DNA of 64,000 nt from an uncultured Candidatus Saccharibacteria bacterium (lineage in GTDB: Bacteria; Patescibacteriota; Minisyncoccia; UBA6257; 2-01-FULL-56-20), in NCBI GenBank assembly GCA_964365185.1, contig CAYIOP010000001.1, forward strand, positions 112,673 to 176,672, read 5' to 3'. Positions 1,646 to 42,837 of the stretch are shown here, one piece after another (within the stretch, counting starts at the first letter, position 1; each line of letters starts with the position of its first letter). The notes below the pieces were generated by a model, which was not told the DNA's origin, made no database searches, and saw only the letters and a program-made list of their open reading frames with translations. The translations under genes and the position numbers were made by a program.

Positions 1646-2323
1646 TTACGAGTTTATTTTAACTTTCTTTAGAACTTGAGGCAATTTCGACAATCGAACT
1701 GCTTTTTCTTTTTTGAAATTACCAACTCTGGTTCTAGAAAGTCGGTAGAGATAAGCTCCTGTTTTTAGCTCTCGACCAATGTCTCTTGCGAGCGCTCGGA
1801 TATAAACTCCAGGGCCAGTTATAACTTTTATTTTTAGATATGGCCATTTATAACTTTCAAGTTTGATACTTTTTATTTCAACTGTCCGCGATTTAAGCTC
1901 AAACGATTCCCCTTTCCTCGCTTTTTTGTAAGCGACTTGGCCACGGAGTTTAATGGCGCTATATTTTGGCGGAATTTGGCTAATTCTGCCTTTAAACTTT
2001 TTTAGAATTTGTAAGATTTCGCTTTGGCTAGGTTTTTGCGTGATGATAATTTTTTCTTTCCTACCTTCAGCGTCGTCGGTTTCAGAATTTTCCCCTAATT
2101 TAATTAGGGCCTCATATTCCTTAATTTTTTGAACAATCGCCCCGAGTTTTTTGGTGGCTTGCCGGCCAATCCCAACAACTAACACTCCTTCTGCGAGCGG
2201 GTCCAGCGTGCCAGCGTGGCCCACTTTTTTGATGCCGGTAATGCGCCTTATTTTTTGAACAACGTCGTGTGAAGTCGGACCCTTCGGTTTCCAAACTGCG
2301 ATAATTTTACCGCCGAATTTCAT
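1646..2323 (-). CDS. truB: tRNA pseudouridine(55) synthase TruB
   Basis: GHAGTLDPLAEGVLVVGIG catalytic motif and a PUA-like C-terminus. Confidence 0.9.
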   Translation of the reverse strand: MKFGGKIIAVWKPKGPTSHDVVQKIRRITGIKKVGHAGTLDPLAEGVLVVGIGRQATKKLGAIVQKIKEYEALIKLGENSETDDAEGRKEKIIITQKPSQSEILQILKKFKGRISQIPPKYSAIKLRGQVAYKKARKGESFELKSRTVEIKSIKLESYKWPYLKIKVITGPGVYIRALARDIGRELKTGAYLYRLSRTRVGNFKKEKAVRLSKLPQVLKKVKINS

Positions 2324-2324
2324 T

Positions 2325-2810
2325 TTATGGCTGAAGGATATCCTCGCTTCGGCCGTTCACTGAAATTTTTACATCCTTAACTTCTGGAAATTGTTTTAAA
2401 GTTTCGATAATCTGAGCTCGAATGGCGCTAACCCGGCAAGAACCGCCGACTTCACGTTCAAGTTCTTCGCTAAAATCAACATTCAAAATCCCTTCCTGGA
2501 ATGAAATTTTTTGAACTTTTACGCCCAGGTTAATACTGGTAAAATAACCTGTAGATTTTTCCTTTTCTCCGGGTCCCCGCAATAAAAACTCAAGAACGGC
2601 CGTGTAAAAGTTCGTGCGATTATTATCAGCGCCGATTTGTCTTAGAACCGGAAAAACTTTAACGCAAGAAATTTCCGGGTCTAGTTGGTTATTACTGAAG
2701 AAAATTTTCAAGGAAATTTCGCTGGGGCCGGAATTTTTGTTGTTTAGAATATAAATTACCGAAAGAATTAAAAACACAACGACCAAAACAATTAAAAGTT
2801 TATATTTCAT
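2325..2810 (-). CDS. GerMN domain protein with an N-terminal TM anchor
   Basis: N-terminal hydrophobic helix and a C-terminal GerMN-like region (...SCRVSAIRAQIIETLKQFPEVKDVKISVNGRSEDI). Confidence 0.5.
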   Translation of the reverse strand: MKYKLLIVLVVVFLILSVIYILNNKNSGPSEISLKIFFSNNQLDPEISCVKVFPVLRQIGADNNRTNFYTAVLEFLLRGPGEKEKSTGYFTSINLGVKVQKISFQEGILNVDFSEELEREVGGSCRVSAIRAQIIETLKQFPEVKDVKISVNGRSEDILQP

Positions 2811-15857: not shown

Positions 15858-16205
15858 GGACGTAGGACCTGACCAACAGTGTTTGATGACGCTGACTACT
15901 ACTGTCGTCCACTTGCCCTACTTTGTGAAAAAGGAGCCAGGACTAAGATTAGAGCTAAGAAGGGGGGACAAACTCAACTCCGTGTTTCCCAATCCTGGCT
16001 TTTTGCTTGTCTCTTAGGCAAGTTGTTGCCTAAGTATAACGACGTAATCTGGACCATCACAAACATCGTGGTGGCTAGATACGAAAACATCCGTGTTTTC
16101 ATCTTTGATCTCCTATATCAAAAGCTGAGTATATTATAGGCGGTGATTATTATTTTGTCAACTCCAAGTCATGAAGTATATAACATGTAGCATGAAACAT
16201 TTAAT

Positions 16206-26968: not shown

Positions 26969-28723
26969 TTACCGTTGATTGTTGTTTATGGAAACCTGCT
27001 CTCTCCAGAGGGCGGCATAAAGACCTTTAACTCCAAGAAGTTTATCGTGACTCCCCTCTTCAATAATTTTACCTTTTTCCAGAACATAAATTTTATCGGA
27101 ATGGGCAACAGTCGAGAGACGATGCGCCACTAAAATCGTAATTAAGTTGGGCCGAGATTTGGAAATTTGACGAATAGTTTGGCTAATGGATTTTTCAGTG
27201 ATGGAATCCAAACTACTGGTGGCCTCGTCGAAAATGATGATTTCTGGTTTTCTTAAAAGCGCGCGAGCAATGGCTAATCGCTGGCGTTCGCCACCAGAGA
27301 TTTTAATTCCGCCCTCACCGATTTTGGTGTTGAGTCCCTGATTGCTTCTTTCGATAATCGGCAGAGCGGCAGCCATTTTTAAGGCCTCAAGACATTCTTT
27401 ATCAGAAGCATCGGGATTTACAAATAAAAGATTTTCCCGGATAGTGCCGGCAAAAAGTTGAGTTTCTTGAGTGACTAAACCAATTCTTTTTCTTAACTCG
27501 TCGTAATCTACACTCAACGAGTCAAAATTATTGAATAAAATTTTTCCTTTTTGAGGTTGATAGAGACCCACTAAAAGTTTAACGAGTGTGCTTTTGCCAG
27601 AACCAGACGGACCAACAAAGGCCACCGACTCACCCGCTTTGATTTCAAGAGCAATTTTCTCTAACGAATTTTTTTCACTCAAGGAATAGCCGAATGAAAC
27701 ATCTTTAAATTGGATTGATTCGAGAGATTTAAGCGTGGTGGATTTTTGGGGTTTAACTTCTGATGGGATTGTGAGAATTTTTTGGAGTTGCTCAATCGAG
27801 GCCCGGGTCTCTTGAAATTGGGTGGAGACATTGCCTAATTCTGATAAAGGGCTAAAAATAAAAAAGGAATAGAGGAAAAGGCCTAGGAATTCTCCTAAAC
27901 TAATACTGCCTTTAAAAATAAGCCACATCATTAGAAACAAAAGTGTGGCGCGCAGGGCATTGATGAGCGTGCCTTGGATAAAACTGAAGAGCCGAATTAA
28001 ACGAATTTTCCTTAGTTCAAGAGCAAGGATTTTTTCGTTCACAGAATTTAGGCGATTGATTTCCTGATTTTCTAAACCTAAACTTTTGATTAACTCCACG
28101 TTTCTTAAAGTTTCGGTGGTGGAACCGGCTAAATCAGCGGTCTCTAAAACAATGTTTTTTTGAATTGATTTTATCTTGCGGCTAATCAAAAAAGTGGTGA
28201 GCGCGAGAATCGGAATCATTAGAAAGTAAACCAGCCCCAGCAACCAGTGCACGTGAAAAGCATAGATTAAGACAAAAATAACGCCGATGAGCGAGAAAAA
28301 GACGATATTAACAAAATTGGAAATAAGAATTTGAATATCATTGCGGGCTTTTTGAAGTTTTCCCAAAATTTCGCCTGAACGCTGGTCTTCTAAAACGGCA
28401 TAGGGCAAAGAAAAAGAATGGCCAATGCTACGCTCATAAATTGAGGCGCCGACTTTTTGACTCACCATACTGACAAAATAATCTTGAAAATTTTTGGCGA
28501 CCCGAGAAATAAAAGCCACTCCAACAAAAGCCAGAAGAAGGTAGAGAATTCCGTGGAGAAATTCCTGGGTTGAAAATTCTCCGGCGTGAGTGACATATTT
28601 ATCGATCATCAATCGCAGGACTTGCGGATCGAGTAAGGAGAAAAATTGATTGATGGCCGCCAAAAACAATCCCAGAATCAGGATTTTTCGGTGGCGACGA
28701 ACATAATTCCAAATAAGGGACAT
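26969..28723 (-). CDS. ABC exporter, fused permease/ATPase (MsbA-like)
   Basis: Six-TM N-domain plus Walker A GPSGSGKST, signature LSGGERQR, and Walker B IIIFDEATS. Confidence 0.9.
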   Translation of the reverse strand: MSLIWNYVRRHRKILILGLFLAAINQFFSLLDPQVLRLMIDKYVTHAGEFSTQEFLHGILYLLLAFVGVAFISRVAKNFQDYFVSMVSQKVGASIYERSIGHSFSLPYAVLEDQRSGEILGKLQKARNDIQILISNFVNIVFFSLIGVIFVLIYAFHVHWLLGLVYFLMIPILALTTFLISRKIKSIQKNIVLETADLAGSTTETLRNVELIKSLGLENQEINRLNSVNEKILALELRKIRLIRLFSFIQGTLINALRATLLFLMMWLIFKGSISLGEFLGLFLYSFFIFSPLSELGNVSTQFQETRASIEQLQKILTIPSEVKPQKSTTLKSLESIQFKDVSFGYSLSEKNSLEKIALEIKAGESVAFVGPSGSGKSTLVKLLVGLYQPQKGKILFNNFDSLSVDYDELRKRIGLVTQETQLFAGTIRENLLFVNPDASDKECLEALKMAAALPIIERSNQGLNTKIGEGGIKISGGERQRLAIARALLRKPEIIIFDEATSSLDSITEKSISQTIRQISKSRPNLITILVAHRLSTVAHSDKIYVLEKGKIIEEGSHDKLLGVKGLYAALWREQVSINNNQR

Positions 28724-28902: not shown

Positions 28903-29193
28903 TTAGAAATCTCGGCCGCCTCGACCGCCGCGATTTTGTCGTGGCTCCAAGGGGCGAGCTTCGTTGACCGTAAGGTTGCGACCGCCAAGGGTCTTGCCGT
29001 TCCACATTTCAATCGCTTTGCTAGCATCTTCGTCGTTGGTCATCTCCACAAAGCCGAAGCCCTTGGAGCGGCCAGTCATGCGATCGGTAATAATGGTGGC
29101 TGATTCAACTTCTCCCGCTTGAGAAAAGGCATCCTTTAACTCATCGGAAGTGGCTGAATAAGGCAGTCCGCCAACGTATAACTTTTTACCCAT
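28903..29193 (-). CDS. RRM-type RNA-binding protein
   Basis: RNP-2 (LYVGGL) and RNP-1 (KGFGFVEM), with an RGG-rich tail. Confidence 0.85.
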   Translation of the reverse strand: MGKKLYVGGLPYSATSDELKDAFSQAGEVESATIITDRMTGRSKGFGFVEMTNDEDASKAIEMWNGKTLGGRNLTVNEARPLEPRQNRGGRGGRDF

Positions 29194-29371
29194 ACACTTA
29201 TTGATTTGTTGTCCTGGTTCTAAATTAATACCAGTGACGTAAGACGACCTTCTTCTAGCACTGCTTCCCTCCTTTAAACAATCAATAAGCGTGGGGAATC
29301 TGCTTAGATGCTTACTTTTTTATTATACACTAATCACTAATAAAAGCAATAGGACGTAATTATGACTGCAC

Positions 29372-29526
29372 TTGACAAATTTAATAGGCCTGTTATAATA
29401 GCAAAGATCATTCGTAGAGGATGAAGTACGAGGATATCTCTGGCCCGAGTTAGTGGCTGAGAACTGCTTCATAACCTCGATAATCGACCCTGATCGACTC
29501 GCCACTTTTTAGGCGAGTTTTTTTAT
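29372..29526 (+). ncRNA. Candidate small RNA of about 120 nt, bounded by a near-perfect promoter and an intrinsic terminator
   Basis: TTGACA (29372-77), 16-nt spacer, TGtTATAAT (extended -10, 29391-99), then a structured region, then CTCGCCacuuuuuagGCGAGT followed by a T7 run (29497-29526). No plus-strand ORF lies downstream. Confidence 0.5.
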
Positions 29527-29600
29527 TTAAACAATTTCTGAATTGTAACAACTTTCGTCCGCCGTCGCTTAAGCTGTGGCAGGACTTCGGCCTGTTTTCG

Positions 29601-31352
29601 TTAAACAACCTCAGAGTTGTAACAGGCCTCGCAGTACACAGTTTCGGAGCGGTCAGGAGCGAAGGATGTCTCAAATTTATTCGGACAGGGATTCTGGCCG
29701 TGGAAATGCTCGGCGGTGTTTTGATAAACACCTTGCACTTTGCGATTTGCACTTTGCTCTTCTTGGCATGCACAATTCCGTTCCCAGAGTTTACGCGGAG
29801 CGCGAAGGGAAATTCTTTTTTTGTACCGACAATCCGGACAAATTCTGGGAATCGGAATTTTTTCTCGACGATAGAAAGTAAGTTCGTCTTTAACAATGCG
29901 ATAATTTTTATTGCAATCAACGCACTTTAAAATTTGTTCAAGTATTGAATCTTGAGTTTGGGCGATGGAATCCGGAATATCTTCGGGTTTTAATGTTTCT
30001 TTGCCAAAAGTGCCGCTGCTTATTTCGTCTTCCCACTTCCAGCCAGCGCGAATAGCTACCTCTTTGTTCTCAAGTGGCATATACACTTGGCCTTGAGTTT
30101 CGTTGTAGCCAAAGGGCGAAAACTGGGGCGGGAAAAATTCGCCGTATTCTTTGGTTTGCTTCATATGCTCAATAATTTTTTCCTTAAGTTTTTTGTATTC
30201 CTCGGGATTGTATTGCTTATTTAAAATACAATACTTGCCGCCCTTAACGCCCACACAGCCAAAAAGATTTTCGCTGTTGTGGCAGCTATCGCAATAACTA
30301 AGATGTGAGTTGTCGTAGCTTAAATGAGTGAAGGAAACATTATAGCTATGGACTAGCGCGTGGGACTCATAAATCAATTCGGTTTTAAGGCCGAAATGAT
30401 ATGAATCCATTGAATTTTTAACATCCGGACAAACAATGGAGTATTTGGAATCTTCGATGGCTGTGCCGTCAAAAGAATAGTGAGTGTTTTTGGAGTTAAA
30501 AAGCATATTACCGGAAACATTTACGGATTTCTCAATAAAGGCGTATTTATGTAGCGCTTTTAATTTTATATTTTCTAAAAATCTATCATAAACTTTTTTA
30601 CGTCCAGAATAGCTTTCTAAATCATATTCCTTTAACTTTTTGAAATATTCTTCTTTGGAGTAGGGCTGATTTTCAATATAATGGGATTTGTTGCGCAGGT
30701 TGGAAGATAAAAAGCAATTAGTGCAGCCCCGACAATCATAGCAGTAGAGGCATTCATTGCAGTCCCTTAAAACCAGACCAAATTCGCAGCGATAACTTTT
30801 ATGGGTGTCGATGCATTCATAAAGCAAGTTATTCCCCTCTTCAATGTGGTAGCAATCACAGCAATCTTTGGCGCCCATATAAACATTGTTGGAGTATAAA
30901 ATATTTTCCGCGTCAAAAACACTGAAAGAAAAATAACAATTCTTGCTGTTGCCGGAGTGATGAATATATTCCGAATTAACATTGTTTTTATTTAAAAGCG
31001 AGATACGAGGAACTTCTAACTGGAGTTTACGCCACTCTTCAAGAAAATTTCCAGAGAAGTTGAATTCGCGACTATAAGAGAGCGGGTCCCATTTATCCGA
31101 CCACCAGCATTCCGGACAATAAACTTTAAAGGGTTTATTTTGGGAATAAATCGCGATTATATTTCGCTCGCATAAATCGCATTTTCGGCGATAGAGCGTA
31201 CGTTCATTGCGCCAGGCATAGCGTCTTTGTTGCCGACAATCCGGACACCAAGTCGGTGGAGGGACTTGGATTTTTTCGTAGAAATTGAAATCTGAAGCGT
31301 CTATTTCAAAGCTAGCTTTACAATTTTGACATTGTTTTATTTCTTGAGTCAT
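29601..31352 (-). CDS. Large Cys-rich multi-zinc-ribbon protein of unknown function (583 aa, about 50 Cys)
   Basis: N- and C-terminal zinc ribbons share a CxxC...FY(E/R)+KI.P.P..CPDCR motif. The central region has repeated CxxC/CxC clusters (CCDCYH, CNECLYCYDCRGCTNC, CDSCHN). Confidence 0.6.
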   Translation of the reverse strand: MTQEIKQCQNCKASFEIDASDFNFYEKIQVPPPTWCPDCRQQRRYAWRNERTLYRRKCDLCERNIIAIYSQNKPFKVYCPECWWSDKWDPLSYSREFNFSGNFLEEWRKLQLEVPRISLLNKNNVNSEYIHHSGNSKNCYFSFSVFDAENILYSNNVYMGAKDCCDCYHIEEGNNLLYECIDTHKSYRCEFGLVLRDCNECLYCYDCRGCTNCFLSSNLRNKSHYIENQPYSKEEYFKKLKEYDLESYSGRKKVYDRFLENIKLKALHKYAFIEKSVNVSGNMLFNSKNTHYSFDGTAIEDSKYSIVCPDVKNSMDSYHFGLKTELIYESHALVHSYNVSFTHLSYDNSHLSYCDSCHNSENLFGCVGVKGGKYCILNKQYNPEEYKKLKEKIIEHMKQTKEYGEFFPPQFSPFGYNETQGQVYMPLENKEVAIRAGWKWEDEISSGTFGKETLKPEDIPDSIAQTQDSILEQILKCVDCNKNYRIVKDELTFYRREKIPIPRICPDCRYKKRISLRAPRKLWERNCACQEEQSANRKVQGVYQNTAEHFHGQNPCPNKFETSFAPDRSETVYCEACYNSEVV

Positions 31353-31366
31353 AATTAGAATTACGA

Positions 31367-32269
31367 TTATCTCTGAAATTCTAGCAGATAGTGCCTATCT
31401 TTAATAACTGGCTGATCAACGCCTAAATCTTCTTCATAGTTTAATTTCCAACCATATTTAGAAATTCTCCGAATCCAATCTTTTGGAGTTTCATACGCGC
31501 CGGGAACGGGTATATTGGCATTATGAAAAAGCCGGTTATATAGATAGTCGTTCATAAAAGTTCTGTCTTTGTCCATTTCTATTTCTTCCTCAGTTTTTCC
31601 TTCGGGAATGGTTTCGATAATAACAAGCTTATGTTTAATAATTCTGTCGAGTTCGGCTAAAATTTTCTCATTCTCTTGTTCATGATGGAGAACATTAGTG
31701 AGTAAGCCGGCTTCGTAGTGTTTATCCATAACTTCGACGCGCGTACCGTCGAAAATATAAATAGGAACAGTAAGTCCCTCGCGGTGATAGGATCGAATAT
31801 CCACTCCTTCAATATTAAGTAAAAGTTGGTCGCTTAAAAGTTGGGTAATCTGACCGTCGCCAGCGCCATAATCAATAACCTTGCCCCTGATATTTTTAAG
31901 ATATGGGGCGACTTGTTTAAAAATCGTTTCAGCGCGATTTTTTAATTTTTCGTTTAAAACTTCAATAAGATTTAATTCCTGGTTTCCAAAATTAAGCCTG
32001 GTGTTTTGGAACAATTTTCTGACCTTATCTTCGGTTTCCCGTAAGGATTGATTGCTTTTTAAAAAACTAGAAACATCTTTATATATTTCTATTGATTTTT
32101 CTTGCGACAATCCCAATTGTTCAAAGGTATGGGTGAAATCATTTTCTATTTGGATTTGAGTTTCAGGGTTTGCAAAACAATCCAAAATACGTTCCTGCAG
32201 TAATTTTGTTTCGTCTTCGGATTTCTCTTTTTTATTTTCAGGTGAGTCGAAATTCATGTTTATTTTCAT
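31367..32269 (-). CDS. Class I SAM-dependent methyltransferase
   Basis: SAM motif I VIDYGAGDGQITQLL, with acidic post-I and motif II-like segments. Confidence 0.55.
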   Translation of the reverse strand: MKINMNFDSPENKKEKSEDETKLLQERILDCFANPETQIQIENDFTHTFEQLGLSQEKSIEIYKDVSSFLKSNQSLRETEDKVRKLFQNTRLNFGNQELNLIEVLNEKLKNRAETIFKQVAPYLKNIRGKVIDYGAGDGQITQLLSDQLLLNIEGVDIRSYHREGLTVPIYIFDGTRVEVMDKHYEAGLLTNVLHHEQENEKILAELDRIIKHKLVIIETIPEGKTEEEIEMDKDRTFMNDYLYNRLFHNANIPVPGAYETPKDWIRRISKYGWKLNYEEDLGVDQPVIKDRHYLLEFQR

Positions 32270-32300
32270 GACACTTTTGATGTGCTATACGAATGGAAAT

Positions 32301-32801
32301 TCATCTCTCGATATTATTCCATCTAATAAAAACTTTTATGGTTTCTTTAAATCCGCCAGTATATTTTTCAGGATTTTTATCCATATCTTGCAACACCTCG
32401 TTTAGATTTCTCCAGAAAACATTTTTTACCTCGTCCTCTTTCAACTTTAAAGGAACAGCGTTACAAATAAAAATTCTAAACATGTGCCTACTATTAAATA
32501 TTGCTCCTTTGTCCTGGGCATCCGTAGAGCCAATATCTTTTAATTCAACGCCAACAACACCAAGCTCTTCTTCTAATTCTCTTTTTGCCGCCTCAAGATA
32601 GCTCTCGCCTATATCTACATGCCCCGCAGATGAATGATCGAGGTGTCCATCTTTTGCTCGTTCATTTATTAAAATCTCTCTTTTCTCATTTACAAGATAA
32701 ATGACCGCTACTCGGTGTAGTAGCCCTTCTTTGTGTGCTTTTTCTCGAGATACTTCACCAAGCACATTGTCTTTTTCATCAACCCAAATTACATTACTCA
32801 T
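32301..32801 (-). CDS. Nudix hydrolase
   Basis: Nudix box GHVDIGESYLEAAKRELEEELGV. Confidence 0.85.
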   Translation of the reverse strand: MSNVIWVDEKDNVLGEVSREKAHKEGLLHRVAVIYLVNEKREILINERAKDGHLDHSSAGHVDIGESYLEAAKRELEEELGVVGVELKDIGSTDAQDKGAIFNSRHMFRIFICNAVPLKLKEDEVKNVFWRNLNEVLQDMDKNPEKYTGGFKETIKVFIRWNNIER

Positions 32802-32825
32802 ATTTCCTATTTTCTATGACGTTTT

Positions 32826-33251
32826 TTATTTTACTTCTTGGAAGCCAAGTTTTAATAGCACCGATCTCGCATCTTCAATTCTGTCATCCTTAACTAAAAT
32901 ATAATCTTTTGAATAGGTTGAAACTACTAAGATATTCAGACCTTCTTTCGCGATGGCCTGACTTACTGTAGCAATAAATCCTATGGCGTAAAATGGAACA
33001 GATACGTTAAGCGAAACTAATCTATAAACTTCTTTATTCTTTTCGATAAGGGCTAATTCTGGGAGATTTTTTTCTTCGGTGACTACTGTAATTTCGTCTT
33101 TGTCTTTACTGATAAAAAAATGATTTTCAATATTCGGAGCTTCCGCAACCTTGGCATACACAAAGCTTCCTTCCTCGATTTTGAAACTGCTTTGCTTAAT
33201 GATTTTATCGATTTCGCTGTTCATGTTTTTATCCCCCATTATCCATGACAA
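32826..33251 (-). CDS. ACT-domain protein
   Basis: C-terminal ACT-like beta-alpha-beta-beta-alpha-beta segment (NVSVPFYAIGFIATVSQAIAKEGLNILVVSTYSKDYILV). Confidence 0.45.
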   Translation of the reverse strand: MSWIMGDKNMNSEIDKIIKQSSFKIEEGSFVYAKVAEAPNIENHFFISKDKDEITVVTEEKNLPELALIEKNKEVYRLVSLNVSVPFYAIGFIATVSQAIAKEGLNILVVSTYSKDYILVKDDRIEDARSVLLKLGFQEVK

Positions 33252-42181: not shown

Positions 42182-42448
42182 ATGAATTGTTTTCTCTATG
42201 TATTAAAGAATAAAAATAAAAACTGGCATTATATTGGAGTTACCTCTAACCTAAAGAAGAGGTTGGAATATCACAATCGCGGTAAAGTTAAATCAACTCG
42301 ACCTTATGTTCCACTTACGCTTGTATATTCAGAAAAATTTAATAATAATAGTGAAGCCCGCAAGCGAGAAAATTTTCTAAAAAGGACAGCTCGAGCAAGA
42401 GAAGATTTATTCGAAAAAATAGATTTGGCCCTATCGTCTAATGGCTAG
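42182..42448 (+). CDS. GIY-YIG nuclease family protein (YhbQ/UPF0213-like, 88 aa)
   Basis: FLYVLKNKNKNWHYIGVTSNLKKRLEYHNRGKV...RPYVPLTLVYSEKFNNNSEARKRENFLKR is a GIY...YIG...R...E...N motif. The longest ORF starts at 42128 inside the tRNA-fragment copy, so the internal Met at 42182 is preferred. The stop codon lies inside the intact tRNA. Confidence 0.7.
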   Translation: MNCFLYVLKNKNKNWHYIGVTSNLKKRLEYHNRGKVKSTRPYVPLTLVYSEKFNNNSEARKRENFLKRTARAREDLFEKIDLALSSNG

Positions 42449-42498
42449 GACGGTTGGTTCTCAGCCAGCAAATCGGGGTTCGATCCCCCGTAGGGCTG
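42427..42498 (+). tRNA. tRNA-Glu (anticodon CUC)
   Basis: Cloverleaf: acceptor GGCCCUA/UAGGGCU, D-stem GUCU/GGAC, anticodon stem GUUGG/CCAGC with loop UUCUCAG, T-arm CGGGG-UUCGAUC-CCCCG, discriminator G. No CCA encoded. Terminator at 42510-42540. Confidence 0.85.
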
Positions 42499-42695
42499 CT
42501 TTTAGAAAAATAAAAGCCCTTAGGGAAGGCTTTTATTTTTTCTACAGTGGAGATTTCATTACGGAGGATCGAACTAAGAGGGGTCGGGAGAACATTTGGT
42601 CTCCCGTGTCGGAATGAGTCCGGCAACTGCCGGACGGATTCAAAACCGAGGGTTTTGAAAGAGTCCCGCCGAAGGGGGACGACGTGAGATTCCCC

Positions 42696-42710
42696 CGTAG
42701 GGCTGCTATT
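42696..42710 (+). repeat. Duplicate of the tRNA-Glu 3' end (CCCCCGTAGGGCTGC), preceded by a degenerate T-arm
   Basis: GGGGGacgacgugagauuCCCCCGUAGGGCUGC mirrors the tRNA T-arm and 3' acceptor. The roughly 200 bp between tRNA and copy is highly structured and non-coding. Confidence 0.6.
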
Positions 42711-42736
42711 GACATTTTAATTATATATGCTAGAAT
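42709..42736 (+). promoter_or_regulatory. Sigma70-like promoter for the 42838 ORF
   Basis: TTGACA, 16-nt spacer, TAGAAT. SD GGAGGTG ahead of the ATG. Confidence 0.5.
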
Positions 42737-42837
42737 ATAATTAGTAATTCCTATTTGTATGAGTAGGTCGTTCCCTGTGGAATAAGGGTAAAGTCCTGAC
42801 CTTATAGGATTTAACAATTTTTTATTGGAGGTGTTGT

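What the first reader, a model, noticed from the sequence alone, without database searches (positions are those of the whole stretch)
29372..29526. Stand-alone small RNA candidate with a near-consensus extended -10 promoter and an intrinsic terminator
TTGACA, 16 nt, TGtTATAAT is about the strongest promoter-like sequence in the window. It is followed by about 100 nt that fold into a long-range helix (GAGGAUGAAG pairs with CUUCAUAACCUC) with internal stem-loops, then CTCGCC...GGCGAGT and a T7 run. There is no ORF and no plus-strand gene downstream; the flanking genes are on the minus strand. I could not match it to SRP RNA, 6S, tmRNA or RNase P by eye.
Basis: seen in the sequence. Interest (0 to 1): 0.6.

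Follow-up and report, generated by a model that had tools for sequence, protein, structure and literature searches.

The report
Orphan small-RNA gene candidate
In a groundwater Patescibacteria (CPR) genome, a perfect consensus promoter and a strong terminator bracket about 115 nt of non-coding, hairpin-forming sequence, so this is probably a small-RNA gene; it matches no known RNA family, has no detectable relative, and its function is only inferred.

Summary
TTGACA-16-TGtTATAAT at 29372-29399 is one of only two 12/12 promoter matches in the 64 kb; base shuffles of the window give 0.095 per window. An intrinsic terminator lies 97 nt downstream of the -10 hexamer (stem -13.2 kcal/mol, z -6, then T7). 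No credible ORF lies between them. Rfam 15 places it in no family.

The organism is a CPR/Patescibacteria bacterium from Hainich groundwater. The neighbours, all on the minus strand, are an RRM-type RNA-binding regulator and a cysteine-rich multi-copy gene, here called X583.

The sRNA reading is only partly supported:
- The core hairpin is modestly stable (z about -2.5 to -2.8); the whole body is not (z -0.8).
- No homolog turned up in about 1.1 Mb of related CPR loci, one metagenome scan or two viral scans.
- The relative with the same gene order, L090, keeps the rbp promoter and 5'UTR and a hairpin after X583, but has unrelated sequence where the sRNA sits.

The best reading is a lineage-specific, independently transcribed RNA of about 115-120 nt. 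It most likely acts by base pairing, possibly with the adjacent RRM protein, and is antisense to any X583 read-through. No target is supported statistically.

It is a new member of a known kind, of modest interest.

The parts
29372..29377 (+). -35 hexamer TTGACA of the sRNA promoter
   Evidence: 12/12 match, 16-nt spacer; only two 12/12 sites in the window, 0.095 expected per window from shuffles.
29391..29399 (+). Extended -10 element TGtTATAAT. It also reads as codons TGT-TAT-AAT (Cys-Tyr-Asn).
   Evidence: pair I2: 29386-29398 is a 12/13 inverted copy of the X583 C-terminal codons at 29617-29629.
29405..29416 (+). Predicted transcription start (29405-29407, inferred from -10 spacing) and short 5' leader that pairs weakly with 29485-29494
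   Evidence: Inference from the promoter geometry; MFE fold.
29417..29479 (+). Core imperfect hairpin. The outer helix is GAGGAUGAAGU / GCUUCAU(AA)CCUC; the inner stem-loop is at 29437-29462.
   Evidence: -21.5 kcal/mol, z -2.5 to -2.8.
29480..29495 (+). Linker between the core hairpin and the terminator, largely single-stranded. Together with 29465-29479 it is the stretch resembling the antisense of the X583 'IIEHMKQ' codons.
   Evidence: Fold; blastn 20/21 to an L012 paralog, E 0.009; 17/20 to the window's own X583, counted by eye from the printed sequences.
29496..29526 (+). Intrinsic terminator: 8-bp stem, 8-nt loop, T7 run at 29518-29524
   Evidence: (-13.2 kcal/mol, z -6.0).
29527..29556 (-). 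Relic of the last nine codons plus stop (ESCYNSEIV*) of an X583-family paralog, abutting the sRNA terminator
   Evidence: direct repeat D1 (80% over 30 nt with the real X583 end); nhmmer E 0.064. L090 has the same arrangement, read.
29557..29592 (.). Hairpin just after the X583 stop codon. It is conserved with L090, is independent of the sRNA, and is not terminator-like.
29194..29350 (-). Divergent rbp (RRM) promoter and conserved 5'UTR of about 120 nt. The promoter is TTGCTT-16-TATAAT, with -35 at 29345-29350 and -10 at 29323-29328; its -35 lies 21 bp from the sRNA -35.
   Evidence: Sequence; conservation with L090, L092, L091 and L097.

Best explanation
This is a lineage-specific, independently transcribed non-coding RNA of about 115-120 nt in a CPR/Patescibacteria bacterium.

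Shown from the sequence:
- A sigma-70-type consensus promoter with an extended -10 should start transcription at about 29405-29407.
- A canonical intrinsic terminator should end it at about 29522-29526.
- The RNA consists of a short leader, one imperfect 63-nt hairpin, a linker of about 16 nt and the terminator hairpin. This is the standard build of a bacterial intergenic sRNA.
- It carries no credible ORF.

Inferred, not shown:
- It acts as a base-pairing riboregulator.
- The RRM-type 'RNA-binding regulator' encoded divergently next door may assist it.
- It converges on X583, which has no terminator-like site of its own before the rbp promoter. It would therefore be perfectly antisense to any X583-to-rbp read-through transcript.

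My estimates: a real, discrete transcript about 0.6-0.65; a functional base-pairing regulator about 0.35; a specific partnership with the neighbouring RRM protein about 0.1-0.15.
For: - Promoter: 12/12 plus TG. It is one of two such sites in 64 kb against 0.095 expected. The other one sits correctly upstream of an SD-preceded 42-codon ORF, so consensus promoters appear to be used in this genome.
- The conserved rbp promoter also shows -35/-10 architecture.
- Terminator: -13.2 kcal/mol, z -6, followed by T7.
- Core hairpin: z -2.5 to -2.8.
- No ORF of 30 aa or more. The only AUG ORF has 10 codons with GAGG abutting the AUG.
- No minus-strand terminator-like site between the X583 stop and the rbp promoter.
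- The neighbour is an RRM protein that passes the NCBIfam 'Rbp_regulator' cut-off (104.2 bits against 100).
- A single-RRM-domain protein, RbpB, is a global sRNA-binding protein in Bacteroides, and its own mRNA carries an RbpB site (PMC11697453).
Against: - No homolog was found by blastn or nhmmer, or by a single-sequence covariance model in 98 CPR loci, including with filters off on the nine loci fetched through ABC homologs.
- L090, the relative with the same gene order, has unrelated and shorter sequence there. Its flanking non-coding elements are well conserved by comparison.
- The body as a whole is no more stable than shuffles (z -0.77).
- No target is statistically supported. The scan of translation-initiation regions is no better than shuffles. 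The -22.9 kcal/mol duplex with the rbp 5'UTR is matched by 12% of random window segments.
- Expression is untested.
Confidence: 0.45

Rival explanations
1. Cis-acting convergent unit. The strong promoter fires against transcription reading out of X583, and the short RNA is fully complementary to that read-through RNA. Its role would be to insulate or tune rbp expression, by transcriptional interference or duplex-dependent cleavage, rather than to regulate distant targets.
For: - X583 has no minus-strand terminator-like site before the rbp promoter.
- The hairpin after its stop codon lacks a U tract.
- In L090 a terminator-like hairpin on the rbp strand sits just upstream of the rbp -35, where the window has the sRNA promoter instead.
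Against: Read-through is only inferred from the lack of a predicted terminator; Rho-dependent termination cannot be assessed. The L090 hairpin is weak (5 bp). Nothing shows that rbp needs insulation.
Confidence: 0.2
2. Evolutionary debris with little or no function. The spacer is a graveyard of X583-paralog ends. The promoter-like and terminator-like sequences would be by-products: TGT-TAT-AAT as Cys-Tyr-Asn codons, and the hairpin as the old 3' flank of a lost paralog. Any transcript would be young and unselected.
For: - Relic ESCYNSEIV* directly abuts the terminator.
- The -10 region is a 12/13 inverted copy of the X583 C-terminal codons (I2).
- A 21-nt stretch matches the antisense of a paralog motif.
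- There is no conservation in L090, and the fold z-score is modest.
Against: - A perfect -35 at the right spacing, plus TG, plus a perfect -10 is expected about 0.1 times per window.
- Having a z -6 terminator 97 nt downstream of it on the same strand makes a pure accident unlikely.
- Only the C-terminal relic at 29527-29556 is detected by a family profile. The other two 'relics' are not.
Confidence: 0.25
3. A tiny protein-coding or leader-peptide transcript: MKYEDISGPS (29421-29453), or a 19-codon GUG ORF starting at 29453 that I read by eye.
For: An AUG follows GAGG. The 10-codon ORF translates cleanly. The single metagenome hit lies in a Peripla_BP_6 gene encoding ..KMKYEGISGP...
Against: - GAGG abuts the AUG with zero spacing, and both are buried in the outer helix.
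- No plus-strand gene lies downstream for an attenuator to control.
- The metagenome hit is in an unrelated high-GC organism with no other similarity. By my rough estimate (collection size assumed, not reported by the tool), about 0.1 to 1 chance hits were expected for that pattern.
- Pfam finds nothing in the translated fragment.
Confidence: 0.04
4. A divergent member of a known RNA class: SRP/4.5S, 6S, tmRNA, RNase P, C/D-box-like guide, TIGR guide RNA, or a ribozyme.
For: The length is close to that of 4.5S RNA. There is a weak hit to the archaeal C/D box sRNA sR36 (16.2 bits against gathering 55, E 0.11). TIGR-Tas systems with Nop-domain proteins occur in CPR bacteria (PMC12045711).
Against: - No Rfam family reaches threshold. 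The permissive scan lists no SRP, 6S, tmRNA or RNase P hit even at E up to 10.
- The sequences flanking the GAUGA and CUGA boxes cannot pair, so no kink-turn can form (read).
- There is no tandem repeat array.
- No Nop or Cas-type gene is among the 17 ORFs scanned between 18 and 38 kb.
Confidence: 0.03

Closest known systems
Intergenic, Rho-independently terminated bacterial sRNAs, for example GibS/FopS of Bacteroides thetaiotaomicron, which are bound by the single-RRM protein RbpB (PMC11697453)
   Same: Own promoter, about 100 nt, no ORF, a 5' region followed by a terminator hairpin. An RRM-1-type RNA-binding regulator is present in the genome, here immediately adjacent.
   Different: There is no sequence or Rfam relationship. 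FopS is multicopy with a single-stranded 5' seed, whereas this is single-copy in the window and its 5' part is mostly in a hairpin. Binding to the RRM protein is untested.
sRNA genes transcribed divergently from a functionally linked neighbour (OxyS/oxyR, GcvB/gcvA, SgrS/sgrR; from my own knowledge)
   Same: Back-to-back divergent promoters, here 21 bp between the two -35 hexamers.
   Different: In those cases the neighbour is the transcription factor that controls the sRNA. Here it is an RNA-binding protein, and no link is demonstrated. The complementarity to the rbp 5'UTR is not significant.
Cis-antisense RNAs and convergent-transcription regulators (excludon-like arrangements; from my own knowledge)
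   Same: Convergent with X583, and complementary to any read-through from X583 into rbp.
   Different: It overlaps no annotated coding sequence or proven UTR, and it is terminated before reaching X583.
Archaeal C/D box sRNA sR36 (RF01124) and the box C/D-like TIGR guide RNAs of CPR bacteria and phages (PMC12045711)
   Same: GAUGA- and CUGA-like boxes are present, with a weak Rfam alignment. The host phylum is one where TIGR-Tas occurs.
   Different: The score is far below gathering. No terminal stem or kink-turn geometry can form. There is no array of units and no Nop-domain gene nearby.

Membership tests
Any Rfam 15 family (including Bacteria_small_SRP, 6S, tmRNA, RNaseP_bact, 5S, ribozymes) | Covariance-model score at or above the family's gathering threshold | tested here: not met
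   only a tRNA at 42427; the best hits in 29200-29700 are sR36 at 16.2 bits (gathering 55) and Trp_leader at 16.3 bits (gathering 41), the latter mainly on the terminator.
Generic bacterial trans-encoded sRNA (a functional class, not a homology family) | Own promoter and Rho-independent terminator bracketing 50-300 nt without an ORF | tested here: met
Generic bacterial trans-encoded sRNA | Detectable discrete transcript | not testable with these tools
   No RNA-seq access. Hainich groundwater metatranscriptomes exist according to the abstract of PMC12960796.
Generic bacterial trans-encoded sRNA | Conservation or covariation in related genomes | tested here: not met
   Searches found no homolog. 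The nearest genomes share only 71-76% ABC-protein identity, so the test has low power.
Generic bacterial trans-encoded sRNA | Seed complementarity to target mRNAs beyond chance | tested here: inconclusive
   nothing exceeds background. Only 64 kb of the genome was available.
Box C/D sRNA | C box RUGAUGA and D box CUGA brought together by a terminal stem to form a kink-turn | tested here: not met
   GGAUGAA at 29419-29425 and CUGA at 29490-29493 exist, but the adjacent UAGAG and UCGAC cannot pair. Rfam E 0.11.
TIGR-Tas guide array | Tandem array of dual-spacer units next to a Nop-domain Tas gene | tested here: not met
   No tandem or direct repeat array. The scanned neighbours are RRM, ABC, X583, methyltransferase, NUDIX, ACT, SecA and other housekeeping-type genes.
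Transcription attenuator / leader peptide | Leader ORF and terminator upstream of a regulated gene on the same strand | tested here: not met
   No plus-strand gene lies downstream. The next coding sequence is the 3' end of the convergent X583.
MITE or other mobile repeat | Multiple copies, terminal inverted repeats | tested here: inconclusive
   Single copy in the window and absent from 98 loci. The rest of the genome was not available.

The most novel reading that the evidence does not exclude
The sRNA is a newly born riboregulator assembled from scraps of the neighbouring multi-copy cysteine-rich gene family (X583).

- Its extended -10 (TGT-TAT-AAT) would derive from inverted Cys-Tyr-Asn codons of a paralog's C-terminus.
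- Its 3' half would retain an antisense copy of the family's conserved 'IIEHMKQ' codons: 20/21 to an L012 paralog, and 18 of 20 pairable positions with the window's own X583 mRNA.
- It could then pair with X583-family mRNAs, with the adjacent RRM-type RNA-binding regulator serving as its protein partner.

This would be a bacterial parallel to regulators that originate from inverted duplications of their target genes, in a phylum where no sRNA biology is known.
Probability: 0.08. Interest if true: 0.65.

Novelty: new member of a known kind. Interest (0 to 1): 0.3.

Why it matters
Three full-text literature searches found no paper on regulatory RNAs in CPR/Patescibacteria. A cleanly delimited sRNA candidate next to an RRM-type RNA-binding regulator would be a concrete entry point for such work. 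Single-RRM proteins of this kind act as global sRNA binders in Bacteroides, which lack Hfq (abstract of PMC13370968; PMC11697453).

The locus also shows how quickly the spacer upstream of rbp turns over in this clade. Each sampled lineage has different, apparently unrelated RNA-like units there. This is relevant to how sRNA genes arise.

As it stands, this is one unconserved in-silico candidate, so its immediate value is modest.

Tried and rejected
1. Cyanobacterial origin, guessed from the RRM gene. Rejected: all 80 genome loci that encode relatives of X583 are CPR/Patescibacteria.

2. Synteny through X583. This failed as an anchor because X583 is a tandem multi-copy family. Synteny through the ABC transporter worked but revealed no homolog.

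3. A single-sequence covariance model, searched over all loci, and with filters off on the nine loci fetched through ABC homologs. Only terminator-like matches appeared.

4. Local alignment against the syntenic intergenic regions of relatives. Not above shuffles.

5. Metagenome pattern scan. The one hit lies inside a high-GC Peripla_BP_6 gene and I treat it as chance. The nine positions just upstream of the pattern also differ only by transitions, which I could not fully explain. Two viral-contig scans gave zero hits.

6. The idea that the whole spacer is a decayed X583 paralog. Protein and DNA family profiles detect only the 9-codon C-terminal relic. The order of the putative pieces does not fit a single pseudogene.

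7. sRNA pairing with the rbp 5'UTR at -22.9 kcal/mol. It beat shuffles, but 12% of random window segments do as well. The analogous test in L097 pointed to a different UTR site.

8. Target scan over 71 translation-initiation regions. No better than shuffles.

9. C/D box and TIGR ideas. Rejected.

10. Strain microdiversity. The other assemblies are the same population; the only differences lie in the rbp 5'UTR, so this was uninformative.

Full report
**1. The observation**

On the plus strand, TTGACA (29372-29377) is followed by a 16-nt spacer. TG (29391-29392) precedes TATAAT (29394-29399). The consensus scan scores this 12 of 12 with an extended -10.

My own scan of the whole window finds only two 12/12 sites: this one and a minus-strand site starting at 16161. 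Two hundred mononucleotide shuffles give 0.095 such sites per window. The other perfect promoter sits correctly upstream of an AGGAG-preceded 42-codon ORF. Consensus sigma-70-type promoters therefore appear to be used in this genome.

A hairpin GACUCGCC/GGCGAGUU (29496-29519) starts 97 nt downstream of the -10 hexamer and runs into a T7 tract (29518-29524). It folds at -13.2 kcal/mol, z -6.0.

It encloses a stem-loop at 29437-29462. The statistics are:
- Core hairpin 29417-29479: z -2.5 to -2.8.
- Body without the terminator, 29407-29495: z -0.77.
- Whole unit: z about -2.5.

So the terminator and the core hairpin are real, but there is no strong evidence of an elaborate fold.

No plus-strand ORF of 30 codons or more lies in the unit. 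The only AUG ORF is MKYEDISGPS. Its GAGG abuts the AUG, and both lie inside the helix.

**2. Organism and context**

The flanking genes are all on the minus strand:
- An ABC exporter at 26969-28723.
- A 96-aa single-RRM protein at 28903-29193.
- A 583-aa cysteine-rich protein with no Pfam or NCBIfam match at 29601-31352, called X583 here.
- A methyltransferase at 31367-32269.

The RRM protein passes the NCBIfam cut-off for 'Rbp_regulator, RNA-binding regulator' (104.2 bits against 100).

All 80 genome loci that encode relatives of X583 come from CPR/Patescibacteria metagenome-assembled genomes. Exact copies of the RRM protein occur only on Hainich H43 groundwater contigs that are identical to the window. 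The ABC protein's nearest relatives are 71-76% identical, with nothing between 76% and 100%. The window's lineage is therefore a singleton in current databases.

The wider neighbourhood is housekeeping: UvrA, UvrB, FKBP, an ECF sigma factor, NUDIX, ACT, SecA, HPF and MurB. There is no Cas or Nop-domain gene and no repeat array.

**3. Known families**

Rfam 15 at gathering thresholds finds only a tRNA at 42427. A permissive scan of 29200-29700 returns four sub-threshold hits:
- sR36 C/D box, 16.2 bits against 55, E 0.11.
- Trp leader, 16.3 bits against 41, mainly on the terminator.
- BSnc119 and NRON.

There are no SRP, 6S, tmRNA, RNase P or ribozyme hits, even at E up to 10.

The C/D resemblance prompted a check against TIGR-Tas systems, which occur in CPR bacteria (PMC12045711). 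The locus fails the defining features. The sequences flanking the GAUGA and CUGA boxes cannot pair, there is no array, and no Nop-domain gene is nearby.

**4. Search for relatives**

X583 proved to be a massively paralogous, tandemly arrayed family, with at least 197 full-length ORFs in the 80 loci. It is useless as a synteny anchor.

Using ABC homologs, I fetched 13 loci from nine relatives. The order rbp-ABC-sigma-DUF5667-FKBP is conserved in every locus long enough to show it, but the segment upstream of rbp differs in every lineage.

None of the following found a homolog:
- blastn or nhmmer.
- A single-sequence covariance model, also run with filters off.
- Local alignment against the syntenic spacers.

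One metagenome pattern scan gave a single hit inside a high-GC periplasmic-binding-protein gene. I regard it as chance. Two viral scans gave nothing.

The most informative comparison is L090, the only relative with an X583-like gene directly upstream of rbp. Its alignment to the window shows good conservation of these elements:
- The rbp start.
- The rbp 5'UTR, including the GGUCGUCUUAC motif.
- The rbp promoter.
- A hairpin just after the X583 stop (window 29557-29592).

The interval holding the sRNA does not align and is about 100 nt shorter in L090. L090 has no promoter match there. Functional non-coding elements are thus detectable at this evolutionary distance, and the sRNA is not among them. 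It was either gained in the window's lineage or lost in L090's.

**5. Origin clues**

Directly after the sRNA's T-run, the minus strand encodes ESCYNSEIV-stop (29527-29556). This is a copy of the X583 C-terminus EACYNSEVV-stop. The supporting results are tblastn, a direct repeat of 80% over 30 nt (D1) and nhmmer with E 0.064.

L090 has the same layout: gene stop, then hairpin, then EECYQKEVV-stop (read). The relic therefore predates the split. It probably marks a deleted tandem paralog, since an intact second paralog follows the X583 ortholog in L001 and L006.

Two weaker resemblances are noted but not supported by the family profiles:
- The sRNA's -10 region (29386-29398) is a 12/13 inverted copy of the X583 codons for Ala-Cys-Tyr-Asn, so TGT-TAT-AAT doubles as an extended -10 (I2).
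- Positions 29465-29485 match the antisense of the family's 'IIEHMKQ' codons: 20/21 to an L012 paralog at E 0.009, and 17/20 to the window's own X583 (counted by eye).

**6. Mechanism**

Shown: the anatomy of a self-contained transcription unit that yields an ORF-less RNA of about 115-120 nt.

Inferred: that it is transcribed, and that it acts by base pairing.

I could not support any target:
- A scan of 71 translation-initiation regions is no better than shuffles.
- A 20-bp interrupted duplex with the rbp 5'UTR (-22.9 kcal/mol) beats shuffled sRNAs, but 12% of random window segments match it.

Two contextual facts shape the hypotheses. First, no terminator-like site lies on the minus strand between the X583 stop and the rbp promoter, so the sRNA gene would be antisense to any read-through. 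Second, the neighbour is a single-RRM RNA-binding regulator. In Bacteroides a protein of this kind binds sRNAs globally and also binds its own mRNA (PMC11697453).

I therefore rank the explanations as follows:
- A lineage-specific base-pairing sRNA, possibly working with the RRM protein: best, confidence about 0.45 as stated.
- Unselected debris: 0.25.
- A cis-acting convergent insulator: 0.2.
- A micro-ORF: 0.04.
- A divergent known family: 0.03.

**7. Verdict**

This is a new, orphan member of a well-known kind, the intergenic terminator-ended sRNA. It is not a new kind of system. Interest is modest at 0.3: CPR riboregulation is unexplored and the RRM neighbour is suggestive, but there is no conservation, covariation, target or expression evidence.

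Noticed in passing
window 29601-31352 (-); L001-L080: X583 is a cysteine-rich protein of 560-600 aa with zinc-ribbon-like CxxC motifs at both ends. It has no Pfam or NCBIfam match. It is massively amplified in CPR genomes, often as tandem arrays of up to about eight copies, with at least 197 full-length ORFs in the 80 loci.
   Followed up: partly
window 29527-29592; L090 3302-3400: The layout 'X583 stop - conserved hairpin - nine-codon C-terminal relic plus stop' is shared by the window and L090. The hairpin (about 33 nt, 3 differences) is far better conserved than the coding flanks, lacks a U tract, and occurs in no other fetched locus.
   Followed up: partly
window 29194-29350 (-); L086, L090, L091, L092, L095, L097: The RRM gene has a conserved promoter (TTGCTT-16-TATAAT) and a long 5'UTR with conserved blocks (GUAAG...CUAAGC..., GGUCGUCUUAC) across relatives at 68-74% ABC identity. 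A 13-nt inverted repeat lies at 29194-29206 / 29280-29292. This looks like an autoregulatory leader.
   Followed up: partly
L092 1864-2128 (+), L091 about 1780-2058 (+): These relatives carry, on the rbp strand just upstream of rbp, a conserved promoter (TTTACA-17-TAATAT), a structured region of about 230 nt and a hairpin followed by T5. The region includes the long helix GGGCCGAUUCGG/CUGAAUCGGCCC with one compensatory change. There is no Rfam hit and ARAGORN finds no tmRNA.
   Followed up: partly
L095 1847-2148 (+); L098 about 2420-2730 (+): A different unit occupies the same position upstream of rbp. L095 has TTGACA-18-TAGACT and, about 230 nt downstream, a 14-bp terminator stem with a T tract. 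L098 has a terminator-like hairpin there. L095 gave no Rfam family above chance level; L098 was not scanned.
   Followed up: no
L097 2830-2992 (-): In a relative where SecA directly precedes rbp, a divergent sRNA-like unit sits in the same place and orientation as the window's candidate. It has TTGCAA-17-TATACT, about 125 nt with a long-range helix (z -2.1), and a hairpin followed by a U run. It is not homologous by covariance model or sequence.
   Followed up: partly
window about 29350-33251 compared with L086, L088, L090, L092, L097, L098: The interval between SecA and rbp is a variable island. The window has ACT, NUDIX, a methyltransferase and X583. Other lineages have Exo_endo_phos plus two small genes, or nothing at all.
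   Followed up: partly
window 15974-16161 (-): The only other 12/12 promoter in the window (TTGACA-17-TATAAT) drives an AGGAG-preceded 42-codon ORF encoding a hydrophobic small protein, MKTRMFSYLATTMFVMVQITSLYLGNNLPKRQAKSQDWETRS.
   Followed up: partly
window 42427-42740 (+): The last 16 nt of the tRNA gene (42484-42499) are repeated at 42691-42706, 207 nt downstream. This looks like an attachment-site scar. It is immediately followed by an 11/12 extended -10 promoter (TTGACA-16-TGc-TAGAAT, starting at 42709).
   Followed up: no
L096 4196-4225 (-): The one metagenome match to the sRNA's 5' part lies in frame in a high-GC Peripla_BP_6 gene (..YLQKMKYEGISGP..). The nine bases upstream of the searched pattern differ from the window only by transitions. 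It is probably chance, but not fully explained.
   Followed up: partly
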